A stretch of 64,000 bases of DNA from contig OZ242365.1 of assembly GCA_965208905.1 (NCBI GenBank), positions 1,536,001 to 1,600,000 of the forward strand. The letters run 5' to 3'. The translations under genes were made by a program, and so were the position numbers. Under the pieces are notes generated by a model. That model worked only from the letters and a program-made list of their open reading frames with translations. It did not search any database and had not been told where the DNA came from. Origin of the DNA: Nitrosopumilaceae archaeon. Lineage in GTDB: Archaea > Thermoproteota > Nitrososphaeria > Nitrososphaerales > Nitrosopumilaceae. Below are positions 9,002 to 24,947 of this stretch, piece after piece (the first letter of the stretch is position 1; each line of letters opens with the position of its first letter).

Positions 9002-11677
9002 ATGTATGTGACTAAAGGGCCTAGCCTACCCGAACCAAGAGTAGTAAAATTCTCAACACTCATGTATGATATTTCAGAGGGAAAGATCAAAATACCACAG
9101 TTTCAGCGCTATTTTGTATGGAGTATGAAAGAATCGGCAAGGCTACTAGATAGCATATTGAAGGGTTATCCTATTGGCACGTTCATTATGTGGAATACAG
9201 ATGAACGTTTACACGCGGTTAGAGATATTGGAAGCATTAAACTCCCTGAACCAAACGAAAACGAGTATGTGAATTTTGTACTAGATGGCCAGCAAAGGAT
9301 AACGAGTATATTTGCGGCATTAAATGGGGAGACAATCGAACTAAAAGATGGTAAGAAGGAGGAATTTTCAGATATTGTGGTAGATCTTGACGCTAAGTTA
9401 GATGAGGATATAATCACTACCAAACAAGATGCCGACAAATCACATACCACCATACAGTTAACGACTCTGCTGTATGGGGGATTGTTCGAACTATCCAAAT
9501 TCGACCAGAAATACCACGAAAAGTTGGACGATTACAAGGAAAAAATAAACGCCTACAATTATTCCGTGATACAGGTGAGTCACGCAACCATAGATGTTGC
9601 AGCCGAGATATTTGAAAGGACAAATGTTGGAGGGAAACGTCTAGATACCTTTCAGATAATGGTGGCCAAAACATATGACCATGCAAGTGGGTTCGACTTG
9701 GCAGAGAAGTCTGATGAATTAGTGGAAAAGTTAAGGGCCGTAAAATACGATACACTGCCCAAGCACACAGCGCTACACCTTATCTCACTAATTCTTAAAG
9801 GTGAGGTTAAGAGGAAGGCTATGCTTTCCCTACAGAAAGACGATGTTAAAGGTAAATGGGAATATGCAGTTAATGCCATACAGGAGGCAGTAGACTACCT
9901 TAGGAGTTACTACCGCATACCAGTATCTAGACTACTCCCATATGATTCACTTGTCGTCCTAATAGCATACTTCTTCTACAAAAATCATGGTAAACCGCCT
10001 AACGTAAACCAAGCAAAATACCTAGACGACCTCTTCTGGAGAGTGTCATTAACTGGACGATATGCTGGTTCATCAGATACTAAGATAGCCCAGGATGCAA
10101 AACACGTCAATAAGATAATAGATGGTCAACGACCAGAATACGACTGGCCCATAAATATTTCTGTCAAGCGTAGCGGGGAGTTTAAAGTTGGAGGGGCTTT
10201 TAGTAAAGCCATTATCTGTATTTACGCGTATTATGAACCTAAATCCTTCAAAAATGACGCTAAGGTAAGTATAGACAACAACTGGCTTAAGCGTACAAGT
10301 AGCATGAACTATCATCATTTCTTCCCTAAAAGTTACTTGAAGGTTAAAGGTGTAGCGGACCAAGAGATTAACAACGTGCTTAACATCACCCTTGTAGATG
10401 ATTACTTAAACAAGCAGGAGATACGCGGCCGAGCACCGTCTGACTACATGAAGGAGTTTAGTAAGAAAAATAAAAGGCTTTCACAAACTATGAAGACCCA
10501 CCTCATAAACGACCTAGATGAATTTGGAGTGTGGAGTGATGATTACCAAACTTTCCTGAATAAACGCGCATTAGCTGTTGATGACGCCATTAAGAAGAGA
10601 ATAATTTTAAAAGAAGGGGAGTCAGTTATGTCAAATACAACTGAATTAGAGCAGAATACTAGTGATAAACCACTACATACTATCAAATATGTCAGAGGTA
10701 TGAAATGTCCTATTAGTATAATATGCTCAGGTAGGCAGGCGCCTATACAATCATGGGTGGATGTGCTCTATGAGGTGGCAGCATATCTAGTGAAGAATCG
10801 GCATCTTAACAACTCACATTGTCCAATACCGATAGGGAAGGAGAACATGCTACTACACACAAAATCAACCCATCAGAATGGTAAACCATTCTCCACGTAT
10901 AGGAGAGTTGGGGAGTTATATCTTAACACCAATCTCAGTCCTACTAATGCCCTAAAGCATGCTATAAAACTGATAAAGTTAGCCAAGAGGGACCAAAACT
11001 ATTTCAAACTAATCTTCAGCAACCCGAATATTAATAACAGCGCATCGTCGGTTTGGCCTGTGTGGGCGCGCGAGTCGTTCAAGCTAGAGGACTCGGAGGT
11101 TGCATACACATGTGACACGGATCCGTCCCTTACCCTGCCTATGACCGAAATGCCCAACCAGGAGTTCAAGTCCAGTTTCAAACATGACTATAAGGCAGAA
11201 TATTTTAGACAAAATAAAAAAGCTCTAGGCGCACATATAGAAAAACTCGTCAAGTCCACTGACGGCAAGGGTTTGCAGTATGAGGTTGCCAAGAGCATAG
11301 TTGGCATGGCAAACTCAGAACATGATGCCGGACGTATATGGGTCGGTGTCGGAGACCCAGAATCTGGCGGGAAACCAAAACTACTGGGGCTATCCAAAGA
11401 CTTCAAAAAGAATTACAACAAAGAAGAAATCAGGCGCAGGATACAAAATTGGCTTAGTAACTGCATCAGAGATTACCCCTTGGTTGACTCAGATATTGAC
11501 ATACGGTTCCCAAAAATGCAAGGCGTTGAGGTGTGTCTGATAACGGTGCGTAAGCGTAACAGTGCATCACATACCATAAATGGTAAATTTTGGCTTCGTG
11601 ACATGAATGCTCCCCGTACAACTGAACCTAACAGTTCTGTCCTTCTTGCTTACACAAAAAAGCGCTTCCAAAATTGA
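9002..11677 (+). CDS. GmrSD-type (DUF262 + HNH) nuclease with extra C-terminal domains ending in Schlafen/AlbA_2
   Basis: IPQFQR.FVW, LDGQQR and FERTN.GG (DUF262). HHFFPK..N..NITLV..LN (HNH). C-terminal E-x4-EFKSS..IVGMANS..G.IWVGVGD (AlbA_2). Confidence 0.85.
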   Translation: MYVTKGPSLPEPRVVKFSTLMYDISEGKIKIPQFQRYFVWSMKESARLLDSILKGYPIGTFIMWNTDERLHAVRDIGSIKLPEPNENEYVNFVLDGQQRITSIFAALNGETIELKDGKKEEFSDIVVDLDAKLDEDIITTKQDADKSHTTIQLTTLLYGGLFELSKFDQKYHEKLDDYKEKINAYNYSVIQVSHATIDVAAEIFERTNVGGKRLDTFQIMVAKTYDHASGFDLAEKSDELVEKLRAVKYDTLPKHTALHLISLILKGEVKRKAMLSLQKDDVKGKWEYAVNAIQEAVDYLRSYYRIPVSRLLPYDSLVVLIAYFFYKNHGKPPNVNQAKYLDDLFWRVSLTGRYAGSSDTKIAQDAKHVNKIIDGQRPEYDWPINISVKRSGEFKVGGAFSKAIICIYAYYEPKSFKNDAKVSIDNNWLKRTSSMNYHHFFPKSYLKVKGVADQEINNVLNITLVDDYLNKQEIRGRAPSDYMKEFSKKNKRLSQTMKTHLINDLDEFGVWSDDYQTFLNKRALAVDDAIKKRIILKEGESVMSNTTELEQNTSDKPLHTIKYVRGMKCPISIICSGRQAPIQSWVDVLYEVAAYLVKNRHLNNSHCPIPIGKENMLLHTKSTHQNGKPFSTYRRVGELYLNTNLSPTNALKHAIKLIKLAKRDQNYFKLIFSNPNINNSASSVWPVWARESFKLEDSEVAYTCDTDPSLTLPMTEMPNQEFKSSFKHDYKAEYFRQNKKALGAHIEKLVKSTDGKGLQYEVAKSIVGMANSEHDAGRIWVGVGDPESGGKPKLLGLSKDFKKNYNKEEIRRRIQNWLSNCIRDYPLVDSDIDIRFPKMQGVEVCLITVRKRNSASHTINGKFWLRDMNAPRTTEPNSSVLLAYTKKRFQN

Positions 11678-12303: not shown

Positions 12304-13194
12304 TTAACTAGAACCAAGTTCTACATCACTACCTTCAGTATAGACTATACTCTCAAAATATACTGCACCTTTTTCCAATTTTTTTGTTGAATGAATTAAT
12401 GGTTTGTCCATTGACATATTCAAACCATGTATTTTAAAAAATAATTCTGGGGTAATTAATGCTGAATCAATGTTCTCATCTCTGCATCGAGTACATTTTA
12501 CCATTAATTTATGCTCTAAGTCAACTCTTGAAGCATCTAAACCACATTTTTTTAAAAAAATTTCCTTTGGGTAAGATATACTCGTAGGACGACATAATGG
12601 ATCTTTTGGACGGTGAACCAACGATATATCCTTAATTTGTAGACCTTCACGAATCACCGAACATCGTTCATCATCATAGATCTGATTCTCAATATGCGTA
12701 CATTTTTCATTAAGTATATCCAAACCACAAATCGAACACACCATCTTTTTGTAGGTTACGCCTACACTACAACCCATTGAGCCAAGTCCATCAGATTTCA
12801 ATTGAATGGGGCAGCTTACTGCAACATGATGTTCTGTCTCAAACCAGACACATCCATATTGTTTTATAATCAGTTGTACCAACTCATTCATGATGTCAAT
12901 ATAGTGATTGGTGTTTTCCCTACTGATCTTTGAGCATTCGTTCAGATATCTAATTGCAAGAAACATCCTCCCCTTAAACTCATCTAATGATTCACGGTCA
13001 GGCAAATATGGCCTATTGTAAAAATATTCAGCTTTTACCAACAGGTAAGATTCTCTCAAATCTGGTGAACAGTTTTGTTTTTTTGCCAAAGTTCTAATGA
13101 CACGTTTGTACAACCGGCCTGCCTCATCCCATTTTCCTGATTTTATTGCTTTTCTTGCGCTTAGAATTAGATCATCAGGCGTCATCTTGATCAC
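12304..13194 (-). CDS. Hypothetical protein: helical N-terminus + Zn-binding prohead-protease-like domain
   Basis: CSVG..CSICG..CTH..Y..C..DISLV..P.DP.CR motif. Overlaps the upstream gene by 20 bp. Confidence 0.7.
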   Translation of the reverse strand: MIKMTPDDLILSARKAIKSGKWDEAGRLYKRVIRTLAKKQNCSPDLRESYLLVKAEYFYNRPYLPDRESLDEFKGRMFLAIRYLNECSKISRENTNHYIDIMNELVQLIIKQYGCVWFETEHHVAVSCPIQLKSDGLGSMGCSVGVTYKKMVCSICGLDILNEKCTHIENQIYDDERCSVIREGLQIKDISLVHRPKDPLCRPTSISYPKEIFLKKCGLDASRVDLEHKLMVKCTRCRDENIDSALITPELFFKIHGLNMSMDKPLIHSTKKLEKGAVYFESIVYTEGSDVELGSS

Positions 13195-13633
13195 ACAACC
13201 CTCTTAGAATCCTTAAAACATCTTCTGCTTCTTCGGCCTTTATACTTATCATCTTGGATTTTTCAGTACGAAAAATATCGACGCTGATCTTGGGCATTTT
13301 CTGGTGATCCGTAGCGTGTGCCATGTAAGACTGTATCTTGTGGGTGATCCAACCACTAAGACACCCGACTAACACAGGTAGTGCAATCTCGCTAACTAAA
13401 TATGCTGCAAATATGTATTCTTCGCCTCGGTAATCAAAATAGGTTGGTTCGTTAGAATTTACAATAATTAATTTGTTATCCTGTCTAATTTGCTTTATTA
13501 TGTCAACATCGTTGACACTTATCATGTCGTCTTTGGTAATAACTGTGAAACTATTTTTACGGTATTTTTCTTTAAATTCAAGATTTTGCTGTGCAAAGAC
13601 TTCTTCGAGCGTGGAATTTTTCCATTCTATCAT
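13175..13633 (-). CDS. Hypothetical protein with one central hydrophobic helix
   Basis: 152-aa ORF with YIFAAYLVSEIALPVLVGCLSGWI. Operonic with 12304..13194. Confidence 0.7.
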   Translation of the reverse strand: MIEWKNSTLEEVFAQQNLEFKEKYRKNSFTVITKDDMISVNDVDIIKQIRQDNKLIIVNSNEPTYFDYRGEEYIFAAYLVSEIALPVLVGCLSGWITHKIQSYMAHATDHQKMPKISVDIFRTEKSKMISIKAEEAEDVLRILRGLCDQDDA

Positions 13634-13690: not shown

Positions 13691-14800
13691 TATAGTGAGG
13701 TGCATAAATAACCCGACACTAATTTTACGCCGGTAGAATTTTGTCCAAATTTCTGAACAGAATGTTGCGCGGCTTAAACTTTATTTCCAGTGAATCGTAT
13801 ATCGGCATGATTTTTCTTCGGAAATATCTTTTGGCCGGCCGCCTGAAAGTTCGCCATATCCTTGCCGTTGAGCCATAACCATTCGGCCGGATTTAAAAAC
13901 GGCGAGTACGGAGGCAAGAATATCAGTTTGACGAAATTATTATTCTTTTTCAAGTATCGCTTTACGCGGTTAGAGTTGTGATATGCGGCATTATCCAATA
14001 TTACGGCAACCTTGCCGAACCGTTTTTTCGTCTTGTTCAAATACCGGATAAAGGACCTGTCGTTGGCCTTGCTAGCGGCCATATAGCATGTCTGCCCGTC
14101 CAGCGTGATGCCGCCGTATATGGTCTGGCGCTGGTTGCCGAGTGGCGTTTGTACCGGTATGGCATCACCGCGTGTATAGACTGCGCCGCTGCCAAACATG
14201 CTCAAATTTTGGTGGCTTTCATCCGATATTATAGGCGTGAATCCATCTTTTTTTCAGTATTTTTATCTCATTTGTAGTATCTTTCTGCCAGATTTCGAGA
14301 TCTTTCCTTGGTGGAATTCGGTCGGATATCCGGGGAGTCTTCCGTATAGTAAAGCCAAGAGACCTAAGGATGCGGCGCGCTTGCGATTCGCTGTATTTTA
14401 TGCCGGTCTTTTTCTCAGCCAGTTTAACAAATCCGTAGGCGGTGAATTGCTTGGCACCGTTAATTATATTCTCTAATGTGTGGCGCGGTACGAAAGATGG
14501 ACGGCCAGGCCTCGCACCATCGGCGAGGCCATCCAGGCCTTTATGGTCGTAGACATTAAGCCAATCACATATGGTGCTACGATCGACACCAAGCACATCC
14601 GCTGCCGCAGAGATTGTATATCCTTTAATGCGCACCATATTTACGGCTACGATACGGGCGTATTGCGTTGTACTCTTAGTCTGTTTTAGAGCAGCCTTTA
14701 TTTTTTGGGCATCAGTTTGGTTACTCATATAATTAGTTAGTGATTTTGATCATTTATGTATTTCTAATAGAGTGTAGGATTATTTATGCTCCCAACTATA
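13691..14800 (-). mobile_element. IS630-family element (two-ORF transposase, ORF-B frameshifted)
   Basis: 30-bp imperfect TIRs starting TATAGT (13691-13720 / 14771-14800). HTH ORF 14219..14728 and DDE ORF 13774..14205 (LDNAAYH, LPPYSPFLNPAE). A 5-bp deletion near 13860 relative to the copy at 18 kb. Confidence 0.92.
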
Positions 14801-14904: not shown

Positions 14905-16449
14905 TTACATAAAGAATCTGTAGTGATCCTGTAATACTTTATCTTTTTCCAATTCAGATAAAATCTTACCTACTTCTTCAGCAAATCTAATTGTAATTGG
15001 AAGAGCGGTTGAAAATGCAGTGGTGTTCCAATTTAGTTTTGTTAACCCAAGAATCTCTCTTGCGACGTCTTCATTCTGAGAGTTCCCTATATGTAATATG
15101 CGTAATGCGTTAGGAATCTTATGGCCTGCATACGAACGTATTCTTGGTGAAAACCCAGATGAATAAAGCAAAAATTCATTATTTGTTATTTCTACCAATG
15201 TTCCACGAAGAACAGGATAATTACCTAACCGAATAAAGTTAATCCATCCATGACTTGGACTTATTGTAACAAAGTCTTTTTCAGGAATCTTCTGTCCGTA
15301 TATTGCCTTGTTAAACCCAGTTTGTTCGTCTTCAGAAAATATAGATGACTTGTGTACTACAACTCGAGTTGGATTTCGTCCAGATGAAGTATGGTACTTT
15401 TTCAGAGCACATTCCATGAGAGTTTGTGCTTGGTTTTTTTTCATGTATGGTTGTTTTGTTTTTTCATCAATATCAACTTCGGTTCCTCGAAGCACGAGTC
15501 CCTCTCCATTATGTGTAAAGACTTGTGCCATTGAGATCTGTATATCGCGATTTGGACTTAGTTTGTCTCTAAAGAATGAAATTCCTATATAGCATGTATC
15601 TTGTCGTAGTTTTGCAAGTCTCCAAGGTTTTCCATTTGCTTTGTAGTATAATGCAGTACTGAAGTTCCAGCTAAACGTAGCAGGATCTTCTTTTGTGTTA
15701 TTTTTGAAGTTTTCATACTTTAGAACATGTTTTAATGTACTTTCTCTGATCAACTGGATTGGAATTCCATACTTCATTGCTTTGCCTTTAAGTGAGTTTC
15801 TAAAATCAAATCCCTTCTCTTTTATCTCTACATCGTTGACAGGAGCAAATCCCCATTGTGTTAGAAAGCTTTGGTGGTTTGCTTTTAGGTCTGCAGTTTT
15901 TAGCTCTAATGGTGAAGGCTTAGCAGTCTTTGCACCATATGTGTGCTCTCCAATTCCACAGTACAATTCTGCAGGTTTTGGAAGTGTACAGACAATTACG
16001 TTTGGTAGGTCATCACCTTCAGCAATTTTTTCTATTTTTTCGAGATATAGATTTACTGCATAACCAATCCTTTCATTAGGATTCTCAATATTTTCTATTT
16101 TGTGGAGTTCCAAATCATCCGACAACGACGCATTCCAATTTTTTGAGGTTTTTATAGTACACTTAAATTTACTTTTATTGTTCATTCCGGGATAATCAGC
16201 AAAAAGCCATCTGTTTAACTTGTAACTAGGAACAGGTTGTTCTATGAACCTTAAAATATCTTTAACAAGACGTGTACATTCTTTGTTTCCAATTATACCA
16301 ACTCTAACACTTTCCAACGGTGAGGATTCTTCCTGATGAAAAAATGGACCAAATTGTCCGAGGCCAATTCTAGGATCCTTGTCTTCGTTCTGGTTTCCAA
16401 AGATCAGGTCAGGTTCTGGAATATATTTTGCAACAAACTTAGGAACCAA
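14905..16449 (-). CDS. ago: Short prokaryotic Argonaute (MID-PIWI), catalytically inactive
   Basis: 514 aa with no N/PAZ. Motifs EPDLIFG..DPRIGL..FGP, KGKAM..IPIQ, ALYYKANGKPW, CYIGISFF, RVVVHKSS, YPVLRGT, ILGLTKLNWN and PITIRFA. DEDX positions are substituted (GIS for GID, HKS for HRD). Confidence 0.95.
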   Translation of the reverse strand: MVPKFVAKYIPEPDLIFGNQNEDKDPRIGLGQFGPFFHQEESSPLESVRVGIIGNKECTRLVKDILRFIEQPVPSYKLNRWLFADYPGMNNKSKFKCTIKTSKNWNASLSDDLELHKIENIENPNERIGYAVNLYLEKIEKIAEGDDLPNVIVCTLPKPAELYCGIGEHTYGAKTAKPSPLELKTADLKANHQSFLTQWGFAPVNDVEIKEKGFDFRNSLKGKAMKYGIPIQLIRESTLKHVLKYENFKNNTKEDPATFSWNFSTALYYKANGKPWRLAKLRQDTCYIGISFFRDKLSPNRDIQISMAQVFTHNGEGLVLRGTEVDIDEKTKQPYMKKNQAQTLMECALKKYHTSSGRNPTRVVVHKSSIFSEDEQTGFNKAIYGQKIPEKDFVTISPSHGWINFIRLGNYPVLRGTLVEITNNEFLLYSSGFSPRIRSYAGHKIPNALRILHIGNSQNEDVAREILGLTKLNWNTTAFSTALPITIRFAEEVGKILSELEKDKVLQDHYRFFM

Positions 16450-17932
16450 AAATTTCCTCCTCTAACTCTCCCTCATCATCCATTTCTGCATCAAATTCTT
16501 CAATATACTGATTAAAGTCTGCTGGAGGAATATCCCAAGTTATTCCAACTTCCATGCTTGTTTGTACTGATTTGTTTGATATTACAAAGTCTTTGATTAC
16601 CAATACATTGTTTCCATCGCCAAGCTTGTTAATCCAAAATAGAATGTTATTAAGCTGTTGTTTATTGTAAACTCTGTATGTTTGTGCTGTTATGATTGTT
16701 CCTGTTTTCATTCCAATCATAGGTGTACTTCCATCATTTGTGATCATCATGGTGGGATTCAACATAAGATAAAATTTTTCATCAATCATTATGACTCTGG
16801 CCCTGATTGATCCATGTGAATATACAAATCGTTTTAATTTGTCAGACCACATTTTTTTAGCAACTTGTTTTTTCTGAACCCCCCTGTATCTAGTAGCCCA
16901 TTCTTCTTTGCGCTCGTTTTCATAACTTGGCATTGTATAGTAGAATTTTTTGGTTTTATTATCGTAACATAATCCTTGTCGTTCTGCTTTAGCAGTAAAT
17001 TCCTTATTTAGTAAAGAAATGATTATCTTTTTCTTGTCAGGATCTTCTAACCAATTGACAACAGATTCTTGAAGTATTTTATCACGTTGAACAATCTCAC
17101 TATGAACGTCCATTGGATTGGTCAGATTTGCAAAGGTTACTATTTTATCTTCATACTGTCTATATTTTAATTGAAAATATTTTTGTTCAGGATGTACAAG
17201 CCGTAGTGTTTTAATTAGTTCTGCAAATGATTTATGTTTTGCAATACCGATGTAAACTTTTGCTGGAATGTTTTTTACTTCAAATAAATTGCTGTAAAGA
17301 ACCTCATGAATTTCTTCAGGTTCACCACTAAGAATCGACAATCGGTATTCTTCTTTTGTAAGACGTTTTTTGATTAACTTTATTTCATAATTAGAAGCGG
17401 GTACACTTTGTGTTCCTCGTCTTGTATATATGGTATTTTTTAGAACAACAGTCTTTTCATGCCCTTTTATGTAATATTTTATATCGTTTTTTGGGATCAT
17501 TATTTTAGGTGAAGGTAGAAAATAAATCAGGGCAAATTTTCTTTGTGTCTTGTTTATTATACGAAAAAATTCTGTGTATTGAATAGTGATTGGTTCATCT
17601 AAATATGAATTAATTTTTTCTTGCAATGATGCATCCTCTAACTCAAAATCATCAGCTAAACCAACTTTAACAAACTTCCCCTTAATTTTAGGATTGAAAT
17701 AATCATTTTGTTTTACACCAAGAACTAACCACCCTCCACCATAATTTGAAAATGCATAAACATCCTTGATTATCTTTAGAAAATCATGAGAGTTTTTTGT
17801 TAAATCAATAGTCATCTTAAAATCATGAAAAGTAGTTTCCTTTGTCTGAGATAAGAGATAATCACAAACATACTCACCTGTTGGATCTGATACTTCATTG
17901 TTGATTAACACATTGCCTCTAAAATCAGACAT
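16439..17932 (-). CDS. Schlafen/AlbA_2-APAZ fusion, partner of the short pAgo
   Basis: N-terminal ~190 aa read KETTFHDFK..IKDVYAFSNYGGGWLVLGV..IYTRRGTQSVPA (AlbA_2). The C-terminal ~300 aa read EVLYSNLFEV..P, YLMLNPTMMITNDG, YN..ILFW (APAZ-like). 11-bp overlap with ago. Confidence 0.88.
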   Translation of the reverse strand: MSDFRGNVLINNEVSDPTGEYVCDYLLSQTKETTFHDFKMTIDLTKNSHDFLKIIKDVYAFSNYGGGWLVLGVKQNDYFNPKIKGKFVKVGLADDFELEDASLQEKINSYLDEPITIQYTEFFRIINKTQRKFALIYFLPSPKIMIPKNDIKYYIKGHEKTVVLKNTIYTRRGTQSVPASNYEIKLIKKRLTKEEYRLSILSGEPEEIHEVLYSNLFEVKNIPAKVYIGIAKHKSFAELIKTLRLVHPEQKYFQLKYRQYEDKIVTFANLTNPMDVHSEIVQRDKILQESVVNWLEDPDKKKIIISLLNKEFTAKAERQGLCYDNKTKKFYYTMPSYENERKEEWATRYRGVQKKQVAKKMWSDKLKRFVYSHGSIRARVIMIDEKFYLMLNPTMMITNDGSTPMIGMKTGTIITAQTYRVYNKQQLNNILFWINKLGDGNNVLVIKDFVISNKSVQTSMEVGITWDIPPADFNQYIEEFDAEMDDEGELEEEIFGS

Positions 17933-17954: not shown

Positions 17955-17964
17955 TTTATATAAA
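17955..17964 (-). promoter_or_regulatory. Archaeal TATA box of the AlbA_2-APAZ/ago operon
   Basis: TTTATATAAA lies 23-32 bp upstream of the ATG at 17932, the spacing expected for a leaderless transcript. Confidence 0.6.
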
Positions 17965-17970
17965 TAACTC

Positions 17971-18588
17971 AAGATCTCGAAATCTGGCAGAAAGATGCTA
18001 AAAATGAGATAGAAACACTAGAAAAAGACGGATTCACGCCTATAATGTCGGACGAAAGCCACCAAAATTTGAGCATGTTTGGCAGCGGCGCAGTCTATAC
18101 ACGCGGTGATGCCATACCGGTACAAACGCCACTTTGCAACCAGCGCCAGACCATATACGGCTGCATCACGCTGGACGGGCAGACATGCTATATGGCCGCT
18201 AGCAAGGCCAACGACAGGTCCTTTATCAGGTATTTGAATAAGACAAAAAAACGGTTCGGTAAGGTTGCCGTAATACTGGATAATGCTGCATATCACAACT
18301 CTAGCCGCATAAAGCGATACTTGAAAAAGAATAGTGATTTTGTCAAACTGTTATTCTTGCCGCCGTACTCGCCGTTTTTGAATCCGGCCGAATGGCTGTG
18401 GCTCAACGGCAAGACAAGGATACGGCGAACTTTCAGGCAGCCGGCCAAAAGATATTTCCGAAGAAAAATCATGCCGATATACGATTCACTGGAAATAAAG
18501 TTTAAGCCGCGCAACATTCTGTTCAGAAATTTGGACAAAATTCTACCGACGTAAAACTGGTGTCGGGTTATTTATGCACCTGACTATA
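17971..18588 (+). mobile_element. 5'-truncated IS630 copy, inverted relative to 13691..14800
   Basis: Highly similar to the reverse complement of 13691-14303. Intact DDE ORF 18045..18554 and a right TIR ending CTATA at 18588. Confidence 0.92.
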
Positions 18589-18738: not shown

Positions 18739-19437
18739 TTGCAGACAAATGTAACGCATAAAAACAGAAAACCCCCATATCCGAACACTGTGTTGGGAGA
18801 AACACTTTGGTATATTGTCTGTAAAATATATGACAAAAACTTGGAGCCATATAAATATAAAAATGTGGTATTGGGACTAGTATTCCTTAAACACACGTTT
18901 GATGTATTCATGACGAACCCAAAAACGATAAAAACAATCCCCGGAAAATTCCAAAGTCATGAGAAACATACCATTAATCTCCTTTTGGTCCCAAATGATT
19001 ATCACTGGTTTAATATTACTCGGCAAGTACATCAGCCAAACACGGGACAAATAATGGATTATGCTATGTCGTTTTACTCTACACCAATACAAATTTGTAT
19101 CAAGATTTTATCTAAAAAGTGCAATAAAGGGGACGTACTGTTTAGTGATATGCGTATGATGAGTCACATGAAAGACAGGACATGCCACATTCTTAACGAT
19201 ATACCGCAAATAACCTATGATGCTTGGTGCAATCATTATTACAAAGATATATCTGGGTTTTGTAAAAGTGTCAACACGGTTGAAATAAACCTGCAATATT
19301 ATATGTTGGAGTCATGGCGTTATGTGGGAGAAATCAGTTCTAGCGATGTATCATCTGTTTGGTGGCAGGACAATTTATTTACAAAGTATAACAAACCACA
19401 GGACAAGACAGAGGGTTCGGGAGTCATACATAAATGA
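18739..19437 (+). pseudogene. hsdM: Degenerate type I R-M methyltransferase remnant
   Basis: N-terminal LW....YKNVVLGLVFLKH and C-terminal YKDISGFCKSV..EI..Y.L..RYVG motifs are joined, and the catalytic core (NPPF) is missing. Confidence 0.7.
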
Positions 19438-19856
19438 GTCTTGATGTTACCTCCTTAAAGAGCGCCATAGACCAGTTGCAGGATGCGCTTGCAGTATATG
19501 ATTCGGAACTTGTCCGCGACCATCCGTATCTTAAAAAACACCTGCGAAGCGCATGCATACAGGCTTTTGAGTTCACATATGAACTCTCTCTCAAGATGGT
19601 TAAGCGTTCACTGAAGACTTATTTTGAGATGGATGTTTTTAACATGACGTTTAACAGAATAATTCGAGAAGCCTATGCGCGTCAAATCATTGATTCTGAG
19701 CTTTCGGTCTGGCAAAAATACCGTCAGAACCGTACAATCACAAGTCATACGTATGCTGAGAAGGATGCGCAAGAAGTCTTTGAGGGTACTCCGGACTTTC
19801 TGGTTGAGGCCAAATATCTTTTGTCTCGGCTGCAGGAGTTAAACAAATATGACTAG
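19434..19856 (+). CDS. HEPN protein, HI0074 (nucleotidyltransferase substrate-binding) family
   Basis: IQAFEFTYELS.KM.K and RQNRTITSHTY (R-x4-H) motifs. Confidence 0.9.
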   Translation: MSLDVTSLKSAIDQLQDALAVYDSELVRDHPYLKKHLRSACIQAFEFTYELSLKMVKRSLKTYFEMDVFNMTFNRIIREAYARQIIDSELSVWQKYRQNRTITSHTYAEKDAQEVFEGTPDFLVEAKYLLSRLQELNKYD

Positions 19857-20157
19857 TCCAATTGACATCAACCCATACCATCTGGATATTGTGCGGGATA
19901 TATTGCACAAATATTTGCCAACTGGATTTAGCGTCTGGGTGTTTGGTAGCCGGGCCATCTGGACAACAAGATTTTCATCTGATCTGGATATTGCTGTCCA
20001 AGGAAAAGACAAGTTAGACTATGATTCCAAGCTTGCGTTGGATATTGCCTTTGATGAGTCGGCGCTACCGTATACGGTGGATATAATTGATCTAAATAAT
20101 GTCAATCCACAGTTTAAACTGATTGTTGACAAGGAAAAGGTACCACTTCCAATGTAA
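19849..20157 (+). CDS. Minimal nucleotidyltransferase (MNT)
   Basis: VWVFGSRA..SDLDIAV..LPYTVDIID. The stop codon coincides with the IS66 end GTAA. Confidence 0.9.
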   Translation: MTSPIDINPYHLDIVRDILHKYLPTGFSVWVFGSRAIWTTRFSSDLDIAVQGKDKLDYDSKLALDIAFDESALPYTVDIIDLNNVNPQFKLIVDKEKVPLPM

Positions 20158-23382: not shown

Positions 23383-24315
23383 TCATTCGGCATTGACCAG
23401 TTTGACAAGTCTCTGCAGATATATAGTAAATTGGTCTACAAACCCGTTGAATTTTTTTTCATCTATTTCTGTAACCAGCAAATCTTTTTCCCCGCCCCAT
23501 TCGAATATATTGTCTTGTTCGACAAGCATTCTTTTTTGCGCGAAATTATTCCTAAATCTTTCATAGCGCAGCAGCGCAAAGTCAATTTTTTTAATTACAC
23601 AACCTTCAATATCTTCTACGTCTATTCCGAATTCCTCGGAAATCATGTACACATCTAAAAAATCTCGAGCTTTGGTTCCTCTTCTGGTTAAGAGTGCCCT
23701 GATCTTCTCACTCATAATTTCTTTTATGTCATATATCCTAAAAGGTATCGAAGAGGAGTATTGATCATATTCGTCAAACACACCCTCCAGATCTTTGTGT
23801 TCGTCTCCAATCAGGCTCCGAAGGGCCCCGTATTGCGGTTTCATGCACAAATCTTCTACAAAGTTTATTTGCACTTTCAAATCCACATTTCTGTTTAGTA
23901 TTACAGAGTTATAGCGGATGTGGAATGTAGTGATCCTTCCACCGTTGTTTAATTCCACGTAATTCCTGTTGCCTTTATCCCACTTGAAATCAAGGTTGCA
24001 CCCGGCCGCGATGCCTTCCAACATGTTTCCAGTCTGTTCCAGCACATCTTCCAAATACTTGACAATCCAGCTCGTTGTTTTTCCGACAAACTCTTCCTGT
24101 TTCCGCCATGTAAAGTCCAAGTCTTCGGAGAACCTGTAATATCCGAGATAATATTTTATCAGGCAGGTCCCACCCTTGAAAAGAAAATTATCGGCAAAGA
24201 ACCCATCTCTGGACAGGTCTGCAAGTATTTGATGTAAGACAAAGTCTTTTTCAATTTGTTCCATTCTCGAAATCTTTGTCAGCGTCGAGACTTGATTTAT
24301 GAAGTACGAATTCAT
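23383..24315 (-). CDS. abiEii: AbiEii/AbiGii-family nucleotidyltransferase toxin (type IV TA)
   Basis: IEKDF, FKGGTCL.K.Y..YRFSEDLDF and EKIRALL.R..KARDFLD motifs. Confidence 0.92.
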   Translation of the reverse strand: MNSYFINQVSTLTKISRMEQIEKDFVLHQILADLSRDGFFADNFLFKGGTCLIKYYLGYYRFSEDLDFTWRKQEEFVGKTTSWIVKYLEDVLEQTGNMLEGIAAGCNLDFKWDKGNRNYVELNNGGRITTFHIRYNSVILNRNVDLKVQINFVEDLCMKPQYGALRSLIGDEHKDLEGVFDEYDQYSSSIPFRIYDIKEIMSEKIRALLTRRGTKARDFLDVYMISEEFGIDVEDIEGCVIKKIDFALLRYERFRNNFAQKRMLVEQDNIFEWGGEKDLLVTEIDEKKFNGFVDQFTIYLQRLVKLVNAE

Positions 24316-24947
24316 TAAACCATCCTATCCACCATTTTTGCTACCGATTTTGGATAGTTTACGGCATATCTCTGCATCTTTTTTTGGGATACGTTTTCAG
24401 CCCATTCAGAGGTATCCATCATAATTCTTTCACTGTTCTTTCCTTCTTGCCGCCACAAATAAACAAAGTCCAAAATTGTCTTTTCTGGATCAGAGTAGCG
24501 AAGTAGTCCTTCGGTCTTTATTCCAAAACCAAGCAGGGAAGGGACAATCTTGATAAAGTCGAAATAGTATCCTGTTATCTTTATTGGTTTTTGACGAAAT
24601 ATAGAATCATTGATCACCTTCTCAATCACAAAATATTCATGCGTCATGTTGTTGAGTTTCAATGCGGAATGAAGGCCAAAGTGCCAGTTTTTTACACCCT
24701 TTAACTCCATACCTTTTGCTACCAGTTCCAGATGGTTGTATCTTTCCTTTCTTAGTACCATATCCTCGGGAGGCCTAACATAAAATATTCCCCTAAAGAT
24801 CCTTGTCAGGTGACCACGGTGAACAAAGTTTCTGACAGTTGTGTCGTAATCCAAGTGCAGTTTAATGCAGTAACCTTTTAGGACCTCGGCGGTGACAAAT
24901 TCTTCTTTCTCCACCCATAGCTTGTTGAGTAGCTTACTTATCTTCAT
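24315..24947 (-). CDS. abiEi: AbiEi-like antitoxin/transcriptional regulator
   Basis: wHTH-like N-terminus (LTRIFRGIFYV), SAL..N.MT and YSDPEKTILDF. Translationally coupled to abiEii. Confidence 0.85.
   Translation of the reverse strand: MKISKLLNKLWVEKEEFVTAEVLKGYCIKLHLDYDTTVRNFVHRGHLTRIFRGIFYVRPPEDMVLRKERYNHLELVAKGMELKGVKNWHFGLHSALKLNNMTHEYFVIEKVINDSIFRQKPIKITGYYFDFIKIVPSLLGFGIKTEGLLRYSDPEKTILDFVYLWRQEGKNSERIMMDTSEWAENVSQKKMQRYAVNYPKSVAKMVDRMV

What the first reader, a model, noticed from the sequence alone, without database searches (positions are those of the whole stretch)
14905..17932. Short Argonaute paired with a Schlafen/AlbA_2-APAZ effector: candidate guide-activated RNase defence system in an archaeon
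Seen: a two-gene overlapping operon with its own TATA box, AT-richer than the core genes, and both ORFs intact in a region full of pseudogenes. Gene 2 is a MID-PIWI-only pAgo lacking the DEDX tetrad. Gene 1 has an N-terminal AlbA_2 domain (E-x4-DFK, AFSN-GGG-LVLGV, Y-RRG) fused to an APAZ-like region. Established: short pAgos form heterodimers with effector-APAZ proteins (TIR in SPARTA, Sir2 in SPARSA, DREN/DUF4365 nuclease in SPARDA) and trigger abortive infection on guide-target pairing; Schlafen core domains are tRNA/rRNA endonucleases. Inference: target recognition here would dimerise the Schlafen domain and cleave tRNA, a translation-arrest output I do not know to be characterised for pAgos, here in a thaumarchaeon.
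Basis: partly seen in the sequence, partly recalled or inferred. Interest (0 to 1): 0.92.

Follow-up and report, generated by a model that had tools for sequence, protein, structure and literature searches.

The report
Schlafen-APAZ short Argonaute defence operon
An ammonia-oxidising archaeon carries an intact, horizontally acquired two-gene Argonaute defence system whose partner protein bears a Schlafen RNase domain; this type is already listed in surveys but has not been tested at the bench.

Summary
Window 16439-17932(-) encodes a 497-aa protein with an N-terminal Schlafen/AlbA_2 domain (Pfam 7e-11) and a C-terminal APAZ domain, shown by sequence and by fold. Window 14905-16449(-) encodes a 514-aa MID-PIWI short pAgo (PADLOC 5e-143). 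The genes overlap by 11 nt.

The pair is a conserved archaeal module. In 26 of 28 related genome loci a pAgo lies directly downstream. In 3 Thorarchaeota loci the two genes are fused into one ORF.

The cassette has 33% GC against 45.6% for the genome. It sits between IS630-like copies inside a defence island.

The most likely function is RNA-guided recognition of invader DNA that switches on the Schlafen RNase, giving tRNA cleavage and abortive infection. This is inferred, not shown.

- **Caveat on the active site:** E32-x4-D37-x-K39 is invariant, but the canonical third acidic residue is Gln75 in this copy.
- **Caveat on novelty:** Schlafen-APAZ partners of short pAgos appear in surveys from 2018 to 2026. 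Argonaute-triggered Schlafen tRNA cleavage was shown in 2026 for a different, fused long-B architecture.

I found no bench study of this short-pAgo type. It is a new member of a known, uncharacterised kind, of moderate interest.

The parts
17957..17964 (-). TATA-like box TTTATATA, 25-32 nt upstream of the gene 1 ATG. This implies a leaderless or near-leaderless transcript.
   Evidence: Read from the sequence. The extended motif TTAYTTATAT sits at the same distance in thaumarchaeal relatives L002, L003 and L005. It occurs once in the window. It is not significant by count alone.
16439..17932 (-). Gene 1: Schlafen(AlbA_2)-APAZ effector protein, 497 aa.
   Evidence: ORF. Pfam. PADLOC. 169 homologous clusters. 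AF2 model with mean pLDDT 80.4.
17348..17932 (-). Schlafen/AlbA_2 domain, residues 1-195. E32 is at 17837-17839, D37 at 17822-17824, K39 at 17816-17818. The YAFSN box and GGGWLVLGV follow. Gln75 (17708-17710) sits at the canonical third-acid position and D77 is at 17702-17704.
   Evidence: Pfam E 7e-11. The profile aligns E32/D37 with CbCash E17/D22. All 13 fold hits at E<=1e-3 are Schlafen N-domains.
16526..17335 (-). APAZ domain, residues ~200-469.
   Evidence: PADLOC APAZ models to E 3.5e-27. Profile against SPARHA HNH-APAZ 9om4_A gives E 1.5e-27, and against DREN-APAZ gives 4e-8. Foldseek hit 9om4_A has E 9.6e-16 and TMt 0.75.
16442..16525 (-). Acidic, disordered C-terminal tail, residues 470-497: 12 D/E and 0 K/R.
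   Evidence: pLDDT is below 50 for residues 460-497. The tail is net acidic in 30 of 30 family members. In SPARTA a tail of this kind blocks the guide-target channel.
14905..16449 (-). Gene 2: short pAgo (MID-PIWI), 514 aa, TTG start, overlapping the end of gene 1 by 11 nt.
   Evidence: PADLOC pAgo_I E 5.3e-143. PDB short pAgos. Relatives L002-L004 have the same -11 overlap with an ATG start. R/H217, K221, Q232 and K270 are conserved in 23 sequences.
13691..14800 (.). Full-length IS630-like element (HTH plus DDE_3 ORFs) on the 3' side of the cassette.
   Evidence: Pfam. Inverted repeats. At least 12 near-full copies in the genome.
17971..18588 (.). Truncated copy of the same IS (first ~605 nt) in inverted orientation. 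It ends 6 nt from the TATA-like box.

Best explanation
This is a two-gene short-Argonaute defence module of the Schlafen-APAZ type. It was acquired horizontally and sits in a defence island of an ammonia-oxidising archaeon.

Proposed mechanism:
1. The MID-PIWI pAgo and the APAZ half of gene 1 form a heterodimer that together resembles a long Argonaute.
2. The complex loads small 5'-phosphorylated RNA guides.
3. The acidic C-tail of the APAZ protein occupies the nucleic-acid channel until a guide-target duplex displaces it.
4. Pairing of the guide with complementary invader DNA drives oligomerisation of the complexes.
5. Oligomerisation brings the N-terminal Schlafen domains together into an active RNase that cuts tRNA, and possibly rRNA. 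Translation stops and the infection or plasmid is aborted.

Shown here: the domain architecture, strict gene linkage, natural fusions, conservation of the catalytic motif, foreign composition and mobile context.

Inferred by analogy: heterodimer formation, guide and target type, oligomerisation, and RNase substrate and output. The analogies are SPARTA, SPARDA and SPARHA for the sensor, and RzAgo and CbCash for the effector.

The confidence of 0.6 is for the full mechanism. That this is a short pAgo paired with a Schlafen-APAZ partner I hold at about 0.95.
For: Architecture.

Gene linkage:
- 26 of 28 genome loci encoding a relative of gene 1 have a pAgo directly downstream on the same strand.
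- The two exceptions are a locus cut by its contig end (L023) and a 117-residue fragment (L028).
- Among the 22 complete pairs, 3 (Thorarchaeota L025-L027) are single fused ORFs. The other 19 overlap or lie within 11 nt of each other.
- The fused representative P0146 (981 aa) matches the pAgo at 44% identity, E 1e-146.

Catalytic motif:
- E32-x4-D37-x-K39 is invariant in 30 of 30 sequences and 27 of 27 sequences.
- It aligns with CbCash E17/D22. The E17Q/D22N mutant of CbCash loses tRNA cleavage.
- E(x)4(D/E)xK plus the SAFAN box is the nuclease signature in RzAgo and mammalian SLFNs.

Other points:
- RzAgo shows that target DNA recognition by an Argonaute can license a Schlafen domain to cut tRNA.
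- The acidic C-tail is present in 30 of 30 members. In SPARTA the tail auto-inhibits.
- The MID residues R/H217, K221, Q232 and K270 are conserved in 23 sequences.
- Distribution is patchy: full-length matches in 2 of 200 same-family genomes and 0 of 9 same-genus genomes.
- Cassette GC is 33.3% against 45.6% for the genome.
- Neighbours include GmrSD, a PLD-SNF2 protein, an HsdM remnant, a HEPN/MNT pair and AbiEii.
Against: - No biochemical or genetic data exist for this architecture in the papers I could search.
- In this copy the residue at the canonical third-acid position is Gln75. That position is 'GVxD' in CbCash and SLFN13. Across the 30 sequences of A1 it is E in 21, Q in 7 and P in 2. 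Mutating this acid disables mammalian SLFNs, by my recollection, so this copy could be weak or inactive unless D77 or D57 substitutes.
- Fold similarity of the N-domain to solved Schlafens is only moderate (TMq 0.32-0.39).
- There is no GHKL ATPase. The ATP-driven tetramerisation that activates RzAgo cannot apply, and the route to Schlafen dimerisation is unknown.
- The pAgo start is TTG where relatives have ATG. The cassette abuts a truncated IS, so expression is unproven.
- The mapping of the lost DEDX residues (S291, S369) rests on recalled motif positions.
Confidence: 0.6

Rival explanations
1. The sensor works as above, but the Schlafen domain acts on another substrate: rRNA, mRNA, or single-stranded or collateral DNA, as the DREN and HNH effectors of SPARDA and SPARHA do. 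The output would be general nucleic-acid degradation rather than tRNA-specific translation arrest.
For: The nearest pAgos and APAZ domains belong to collateral-nuclease systems: SPARDA pAgos at about 1e-60 and SPARHA APAZ at 1.5e-27. Mammalian SLFN13 and SLFN14 also cut rRNA (recalled). The lone Schlafen lobe lacks the second lobe that positions tRNA in mammals.
Against: The prokaryotic Schlafen domains assayed in the papers I read cut tRNA: RzAgo, CbCash and the T5-triggered bacterial Slfn as summarised in a review.
Confidence: 0.18
2. In this copy, or in the whole Gln/Pro75 subgroup, the Schlafen domain is catalytically dead. It would serve as a nucleic-acid-binding or scaffolding module, so the system binds or sequesters targets without an RNase output.
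For: Gln75 sits at the canonical third-acid position. AlbA_2 was long annotated as a DNA-binding domain. Some mammalian SLFNs lack catalytic residues.
Against: E32, D37 and K39 are invariant across all 30 and all 27 sequences examined, Gln75 members included. This is hard to explain without catalysis. D77 lies two residues further on and is D in 16 of 30.
Confidence: 0.12
3. The cassette is a silent passenger trapped between IS copies, intact by chance or recent arrival, and not expressed or used by this host.
For: A truncated IS ends 6 nt from the putative TATA box. The pAgo has a TTG start. GC content is extremely foreign.
Against: Both ORFs are full length with all family-invariant residues. 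The promoter-like motif and the -11 overlap are kept as in relatives.
Confidence: 0.08

Closest known systems
SPARHA (short pAgo plus HNH-APAZ; PDB 9om4)
   Same: Two-gene short-pAgo system. Its APAZ is the closest solved relative (profile E 1.5e-27, Foldseek TMt 0.75). Its pAgo matches at 6.9e-52.
   Different: The effector is an HNH DNase, not a Schlafen domain. It is bacterial.
SPARDA (short pAgo plus DREN-APAZ; PDB 9qbp, 9jsb, 9qbl)
   Same: These are the closest solved pAgos (E 2.5e-60 to 2e-59). The APAZ is homologous (4e-8). Activation is by target-induced filaments.
   Different: The effector is a PD-(D/E)XK DREN nuclease with collateral DNase/RNase activity.
SLFN-pAgo / RzAgo (Kuzmenko et al. 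2026 preprint)
   Same: An Argonaute sensor coupled to a Schlafen E(x)4(D/E)xK nuclease. Target DNA recognition licenses tRNA cleavage and abortive infection.
   Different: RzAgo is one ~1,100-aa long-B pAgo with a PAZ domain and a GHKL ATPase that drives tetramerisation. Here there is no PAZ, no GHKL and an APAZ adaptor on a separate protein. The authors call the Schlafen domains of SLFN-APAZ proteins only distantly related to theirs.
CbCash (CRISPR-associated Schlafen; PDB 9ylu)
   Same: It is the closest solved Schlafen domain by sequence (profile E 6.7e-5). The E-x4-D-x-K, KD...A-x-x-N and RRG motifs align. It is a tRNase activated by oligomerisation.
   Different: Its sensor is a cA4-binding Csx15 domain, not Argonaute/APAZ. 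It keeps the GVxD acid, which is Gln here.
SPARTA (short pAgo plus TIR-APAZ)
   Same: pAgo/APAZ heterodimer (pAgo E 4e-49). It has an acidic C-terminal tail on the APAZ protein that auto-inhibits. A comparable tail is present here.
   Different: The effector is a TIR NADase.

Membership tests
Short pAgo system (pAgo plus effector-APAZ) | The Argonaute has only MID and PIWI domains, with no N or PAZ domain. | tested here: met
   The 514-aa protein aligns end to end with the 455-position PADLOC pAgo_I model (positions 3-455). It also aligns with the 507-aa SPARTA short pAgo (residues 6-493).
Short pAgo system (pAgo plus effector-APAZ) | The PIWI domain lacks the catalytic DEDX tetrad. | tested here: inconclusive
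   In 23 family sequences the strand 'Y-[IV]-G-[IV]-S-F' has S291 (S in 20, A in 3) and 'H-K-[ST]-[ST]' has S/T369. These sit where active Argonautes have Asp, but that mapping is recalled. No active pAgo was aligned here. Koopal 2022 states that all short pAgos lack the tetrad.
Short pAgo system (pAgo plus effector-APAZ) | An APAZ-domain protein is encoded in the same operon. | tested here: met
   Shown by sequence and by fold. Adjacency holds in 26 of 28 related loci.
Short pAgo system (pAgo plus effector-APAZ) | The pAgo and the APAZ protein form a heterodimer. | not tested
   The only support is indirect: natural single-ORF fusions in 3 of 22 complete loci (P0146).
Short pAgo system (pAgo plus effector-APAZ) | The effector is activated by guide and target and is then toxic to the cell. 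| not testable with these tools
   This needs biochemistry or genetics.
Schlafen / AlbA_2 nuclease domain | A match to Pfam PF04326 above the curated cut-off. | tested here: met
   43.1 bits against a cut-off of 25.3, E 7e-11, residues 32-179.
Schlafen / AlbA_2 nuclease domain | The E(x)4(D/E)xK nuclease motif. | tested here: met
   E32-TTFH-D37-F-K39. All three residues are 30 of 30 and 27 of 27. They align with CbCash E17/D22.
Schlafen / AlbA_2 nuclease domain | The Schlafen box (SAFAN) followed by a Gly-rich hydrophobic core. | tested here: met
   Y-A60-F61-S62-N63 followed by YGGGWLVLGV. F61, N63, G65, G67 and G72 are invariant.
Schlafen / AlbA_2 nuclease domain | A third metal-binding acid after the core strand (GVxD/E). 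| tested here: not met
   This protein has Gln75. Across the family the position is E in 21, Q in 7 and P in 2 of 30. D77 and the invariant D57 are nearby candidates, untested.
Schlafen / AlbA_2 nuclease domain | Schlafen fold. | tested here: met
   The N-domain model has pLDDT 88.1. All 13 PDB hits at E<=1e-3 are SLFN5, 11, 12, 13 or 14 N-domains, with probability 0.97-1.0 but TMq only 0.32-0.39.
SLFN-pAgo (RzAgo type) | A single polypeptide with Schlafen, GHKL ATPase and a long-B pAgo core that includes PAZ. | tested here: not met
   Pfam finds no GHKL domain in gene 1 or gene 2. The pAgo is short and the genes are separate. It is not a member, although it may work like one.

The most novel reading that the evidence does not exclude
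The Schlafen-APAZ/short-pAgo pair is an archaea-centred branch of Argonaute immunity, found from Thaumarchaeota and DPANN to Asgard, where it is fused. It reaches the same end-point as RzAgo, target-licensed tRNA cleavage, by a different route. There is no ATPase. Instead, release of an acidic C-tail and target-induced pAgo oligomerisation would pair single-lobe Schlafen domains. A thaumarchaeal subgroup would have moved the third metal ligand from position 75 to D77.

This would be the first RNA-targeting, translation-arrest output for a short pAgo, and the first functional Argonaute defence in ammonia-oxidising archaea.
Probability: 0.45. Interest if true: 0.6.

Novelty: new member of a known kind. 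Interest (0 to 1): 0.42.

Why it matters
Short pAgo systems are known to kill or arrest cells through NAD depletion (TIR, SIR2) or DNA degradation (DREN, HNH). A Schlafen-APAZ partner would add tRNA cleavage and translation arrest to that list. It would also link two immune protein families, Argonaute and Schlafen, that persist in humans.

The family mapped here offers several things for experiment:
- compact two-gene candidates;
- natural Asgard fusions;
- a natural active-site variant (Gln75) for testing how a single-lobe Schlafen domain is switched on without the GHKL ATPase used by RzAgo.

For ammonia-oxidising archaea it marks a mobile antiviral or anti-plasmid module in a group whose defences are little studied.

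Tried and rejected
- **Complex prediction, two copies of the Schlafen domain (alignment A2):** the verdict was 'no answer' (score 0.00, controls not folded). I do not use it as evidence either way.
- **The look-up of sequencing runs:** no RNA holder was listed. The four runs all come from one sample and study, which may be the source of the assembly. This is no evidence on expression.
- **scan_promoters_terminators:** it found 16 bacterial sigma-70-like sites against 14.9 expected. This is irrelevant for an archaeon and uninformative.
- **Count of TTAYTTATAT in the window:** one match, but 47 of 100 shuffles also gave at least one. Only the conserved position in relatives counts.
- **L003, labelled Gammaproteobacteria:** tblastx of its flanks against the host genome gave 4 weak hits. 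I left this unresolved.
- **Explicit alignment of the pAgo to a catalytically active long pAgo:** not done, because no active pAgo sequence was available from a tool. The DEDX statement therefore rests on recalled motif positions.
- **pAgo alignment and fusion count:** of the 26 loci with a pAgo I left out L005 and L015 (pAgo split into 2 and 4 HSPs, not examined further) and L006 and L016 (cut by the contig end). 22 loci remained.
- **Not-in-print claim:** the claim that no bench study exists rests on searches of the held library only. Subscription papers and supplements were not visible. Supplementary Data 3 of PMC13462974 and the Extended Data of the Kuzmenko preprint may list this very family.

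Papers, and what I saw of each:
- Kuzmenko 2026: outline and abstract, passages, sections 5 and 10.
- PMC6299218: passages.
- PMC13462974: passages and section 11.
- PMC13056530: passages, with 0 occurrences of Argonaute, APAZ or pAgo.
- PMC9097488: passages, with 0 occurrences of Schlafen.
- 10.1101/2023.07.12.548734: passages.
- 10.1101/2023.06.08.544223: one passage.
- PMC13434031: passages.
- PMC5995195: one passage.


Full report
**What is there**

On the minus strand, ORF 16439..17932 (497 aa, ATG) and ORF 14905..16449 (514 aa, TTG) overlap by 11 nt.

Gene 1:
- It carries Pfam SLFN_AlbA_2 at residues 32-179 (E 7e-11, 43.1 bits against a cut-off of 25.3).
- From about residue 200 to 494 it matches the APAZ part of PADLOC's Argonaute-associated models, whatever their effector: SIR2 at 3.5e-27, REase at 1.9e-25, TIR at 3.1e-12.
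- No PADLOC model matched residues 1-166.

Gene 2:
- It matches PADLOC pAgo_I end to end (5.3e-143).
- Among solved structures it matches only short pAgos: SPARDA 2.5e-60 to 2e-59, SPARHA 6.9e-52, SPARTA about 4e-49.

**APAZ and Schlafen tested independently**

APAZ:
- By sequence, gene 1 hits the HNH-APAZ chain of SPARHA (9om4_A) at 9.4e-11 alone.
- As a 30-sequence profile it hits that chain at 1.5e-27, and the DREN-APAZ chains of SPARDA at 4e-8 to 1.8e-5.
- An AlphaFold2 model (mean pLDDT 80.4) gave 82 PDB matches at E<=1e-3. Every chain in the printed list belongs to a SPARHA, SPARDA or SPARTA entry, for example 9om4_A at E 9.6e-16 and TMt 0.75.

Schlafen:
- A separate model of residues 1-195 (27-sequence alignment A2, pLDDT 88.1) gave 13 hits at E<=1e-3.
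- All 13 are Schlafen N-terminal nuclease domains (SLFN11, 13, 12, 14, 5). Probability is 0.97-1.0 but TM-scores are modest at 0.32-0.39.

**Active site**

- The profile of the N-domain aligns with CbCash (6.7e-5), so that E32 and D37 fall on CbCash E17 and D22. The E17Q/D22N mutant of CbCash loses tRNA cleavage (PMC13462974, passages).
- The motif E32-x4-D37-x-K39, the 'YAFSN' Schlafen box, the GGGWLVLGV core and R171-R172 are invariant in 30 of 30 sequences. The catalytic motif is also invariant in 27 of 27 genome-derived sequences.
- This is the signature that Kuzmenko et al. describe for RzAgo and mammalian SLFNs (section 10).
- One defining residue is not met here. The acid of 'GVxD' (CbCash GViD, SLFN13 GVdD) corresponds to position 75, which is Gln in the window protein. 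In alignment A1 it is E in 21, Q in 7 and P in 2 of 30.
- D77 (D in 16 of 30) and D57 might substitute. D57 is 30 of 30 in A1 but His in the three Thorarchaeota loci. This is untested.

**The pair is a conserved module**

- The word-index search found 169 clusters at E<=1e-3. Every organism name attached to a listed hit is archaeal: Nitrosotenuis, Nitrosotalea, Nitrosopumilaceae, Nitrososphaeria, Methanoperedens, Aenigm-, Nano- and Woesearchaeota.
- The exhaustive search of 50%-identity representatives found 538, 158 and 52 proteins at E<=1e-3, 1e-10 and 1e-30.
- A genome scan returned 49 loci.
  - 28 of them (L002-L029) encode relatives of gene 1. 26 of these run through the APAZ region. L023 is cut at residue 303 and L028 covers only residues 6-122.
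  - The records are named Nitrososphaeria, Methanoperedens, ANME-1, Nano-, Woese- and Micrarchaeota, Bathyarchaeia, Thermoplasmata and Thorarchaeota. One is labelled Gammaproteobacteria.
  - The other 21 (L030-L050) are bacterial hits to the AlbA_2 part only.
- tblastn shows a pAgo directly downstream on the same strand in 26 of the 28 loci, and in none of the 21. The two exceptions are L023, where the contig ends, and L028, a fragment.
- In the 22 complete pairs, 19 have the genes overlapping or within 11 nt. Three Thorarchaeota loci (L025-L027) have one continuous Schlafen-APAZ-MID-PIWI ORF.
- Fused forms also appear among the representatives: P0146 (981 aa) matches the pAgo at 44% identity, E 1e-146. 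P0128 and P0121 are truncated fusions.
- Such fusions are the strongest evidence available here that the two proteins work as one unit.
- The close relatives L002-L004 keep the same -11 overlap with an ATG start.

**Sensor features**

- In 23 pAgos of the family, R/H217, K221, Q232 and K270 are conserved. I read these as the 5'-end binding motif of the MID domain; that reading is recalled.
- S291 and S/T369 occupy the positions where, by my recollection, active Argonautes have two of the DEDX aspartates.
- The last 28 residues of gene 1 have 12 D/E and no K/R and are predicted disordered. The tail is net acidic in 30 of 30 relatives.
- In SPARTA a conserved acidic C-tail of TIR-APAZ sits in the guide-target channel and auto-inhibits the complex (10.1101/2023.07.12.548734, passages). 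I infer the same role here.

**Genomic setting**

- The genome (2.21 Mb, one contig) has an archaeal AmoA.
- The 3.17-kb cassette has 33.3% GC against 45.6% for the genome, the extreme of 4424 windows.
- It lies between a full IS630-like element (13691-14800) and an inverted, truncated copy (17971-18588). That truncated copy ends 6 nt from the TATA-like box. The element has at least 12 near-full copies in the genome.
- Full-length relatives of gene 1 were found in 2 of 200 other genomes of the same family. One further genome has a fragment with a stop codon. None of 9 genomes of the same genus has a match. Three more hits match only the APAZ region.
- Neighbouring genes:
  - a GmrSD restriction enzyme with its own C-terminal Schlafen domain;
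  - a PLD-SNF2 protein;
  - an HsdM remnant;
  - a HEPN/MNT pair;
  - AbiEii;
  - two IS66 transposases;
  - a TnpB.
- This is a defence island rich in mobile elements.

**Mechanism**

The proposed sequence of events is in the section Best explanation. Only the anatomy, linkage, fusion, motif conservation and foreign origin are shown here. The rest is inferred by analogy with SPARTA, SPARDA and SPARHA for the sensor and with RzAgo and CbCash for the effector. There is no GHKL ATPase, so the ATP-driven tetramerisation of RzAgo cannot be the activation route.

**Comparison with what is known, and novelty**

The architecture is not new:
- Schlafen/Alba is listed among APAZ-fused domains.
- It is drawn beside archaeal pAgos in a 2018 review.
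- Ryazansky et al. record an APAZ orthogroup with SIR2 plus Schlafen.
- The Cash paper has a Schlafen 'Cluster 6' linked to short pAgos.

I found no experimental work on the two-gene short-pAgo version. Supplements were closed.

**Verdict**

This is a genuine, intact, well-supported new member of a catalogued but uncharacterised kind. Interest is moderate.

Noticed in passing
window 9002-11677 (+): An 891-aa GmrSD-type restriction protein (GmrSD_N 8e-30, GmrSD_C 1.7e-4) has a C-terminal SLFN_AlbA_2 domain (3.6e-7). Its tail reads E-x4-E-F-K, a 'GMAN' box and 'GVGD'. It may therefore be a second, complete Schlafen nuclease about 3 kb from the pAgo cassette.
   Followed up: partly
L025:1697-4597, L026:6001-8892, L027:6001-8928: Three Thorarchaeota (Asgard) MAG loci encode Schlafen-APAZ-MID-PIWI as one continuous ORF. 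This resembles the SIR2-APAZ-pAgo fusions of clade S1A. In these three loci D57 of the Schlafen domain is His.
   Followed up: partly
window 13691-14800 and 17971-18588; genome-wide: A 1.1-kb IS630-like element has at least 12 near-full copies (91-97% identical) and several fragments in the 2.2-Mb genome. In the copy next to the cassette the transposase is read as two ORFs: HTH at 14219-14728 and DDE_3 at 13774-14205.
   Followed up: partly
window 18739-19437 (+): A 232-aa ORF joins an HsdM N-terminal piece to the last ~90 positions of N6_Mtase. It looks like an internally deleted type I methylase remnant.
   Followed up: no
window 19434-20157 (+) and 23383-24947 (-): Two toxin-antitoxin-like pairs. 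The first is an NTase_sub_bind (HEPN-like) protein with a Polbeta nucleotidyltransferase, in overlapping genes. The second is an AbiEii toxin with an adjacent upstream 210-aa ORF that has no Pfam hit.
   Followed up: no
L003 (record labelled uncultured Gammaproteobacteria): This is the only locus with a bacterial label among the 28 relatives. It carries the same promoter-like motif and -11 overlap as the Nitrosopumilus loci. It may be a mis-binned archaeal contig. The flank comparison was inconclusive.
   Followed up: partly
G010, G131, G189 (same archaeal family): Three related genomes encode ~470-aa proteins that match only the APAZ region (residues ~205-447, 25-26% identity). Other short-pAgo effector types probably occur in this archaeal family.
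   Followed up: no
window 12304-13633 (-): Two overlapping ORFs (296 aa and 152 aa) just beyond the IS have no Pfam match. GC is low there too, 35-38%.
   Followed up: no
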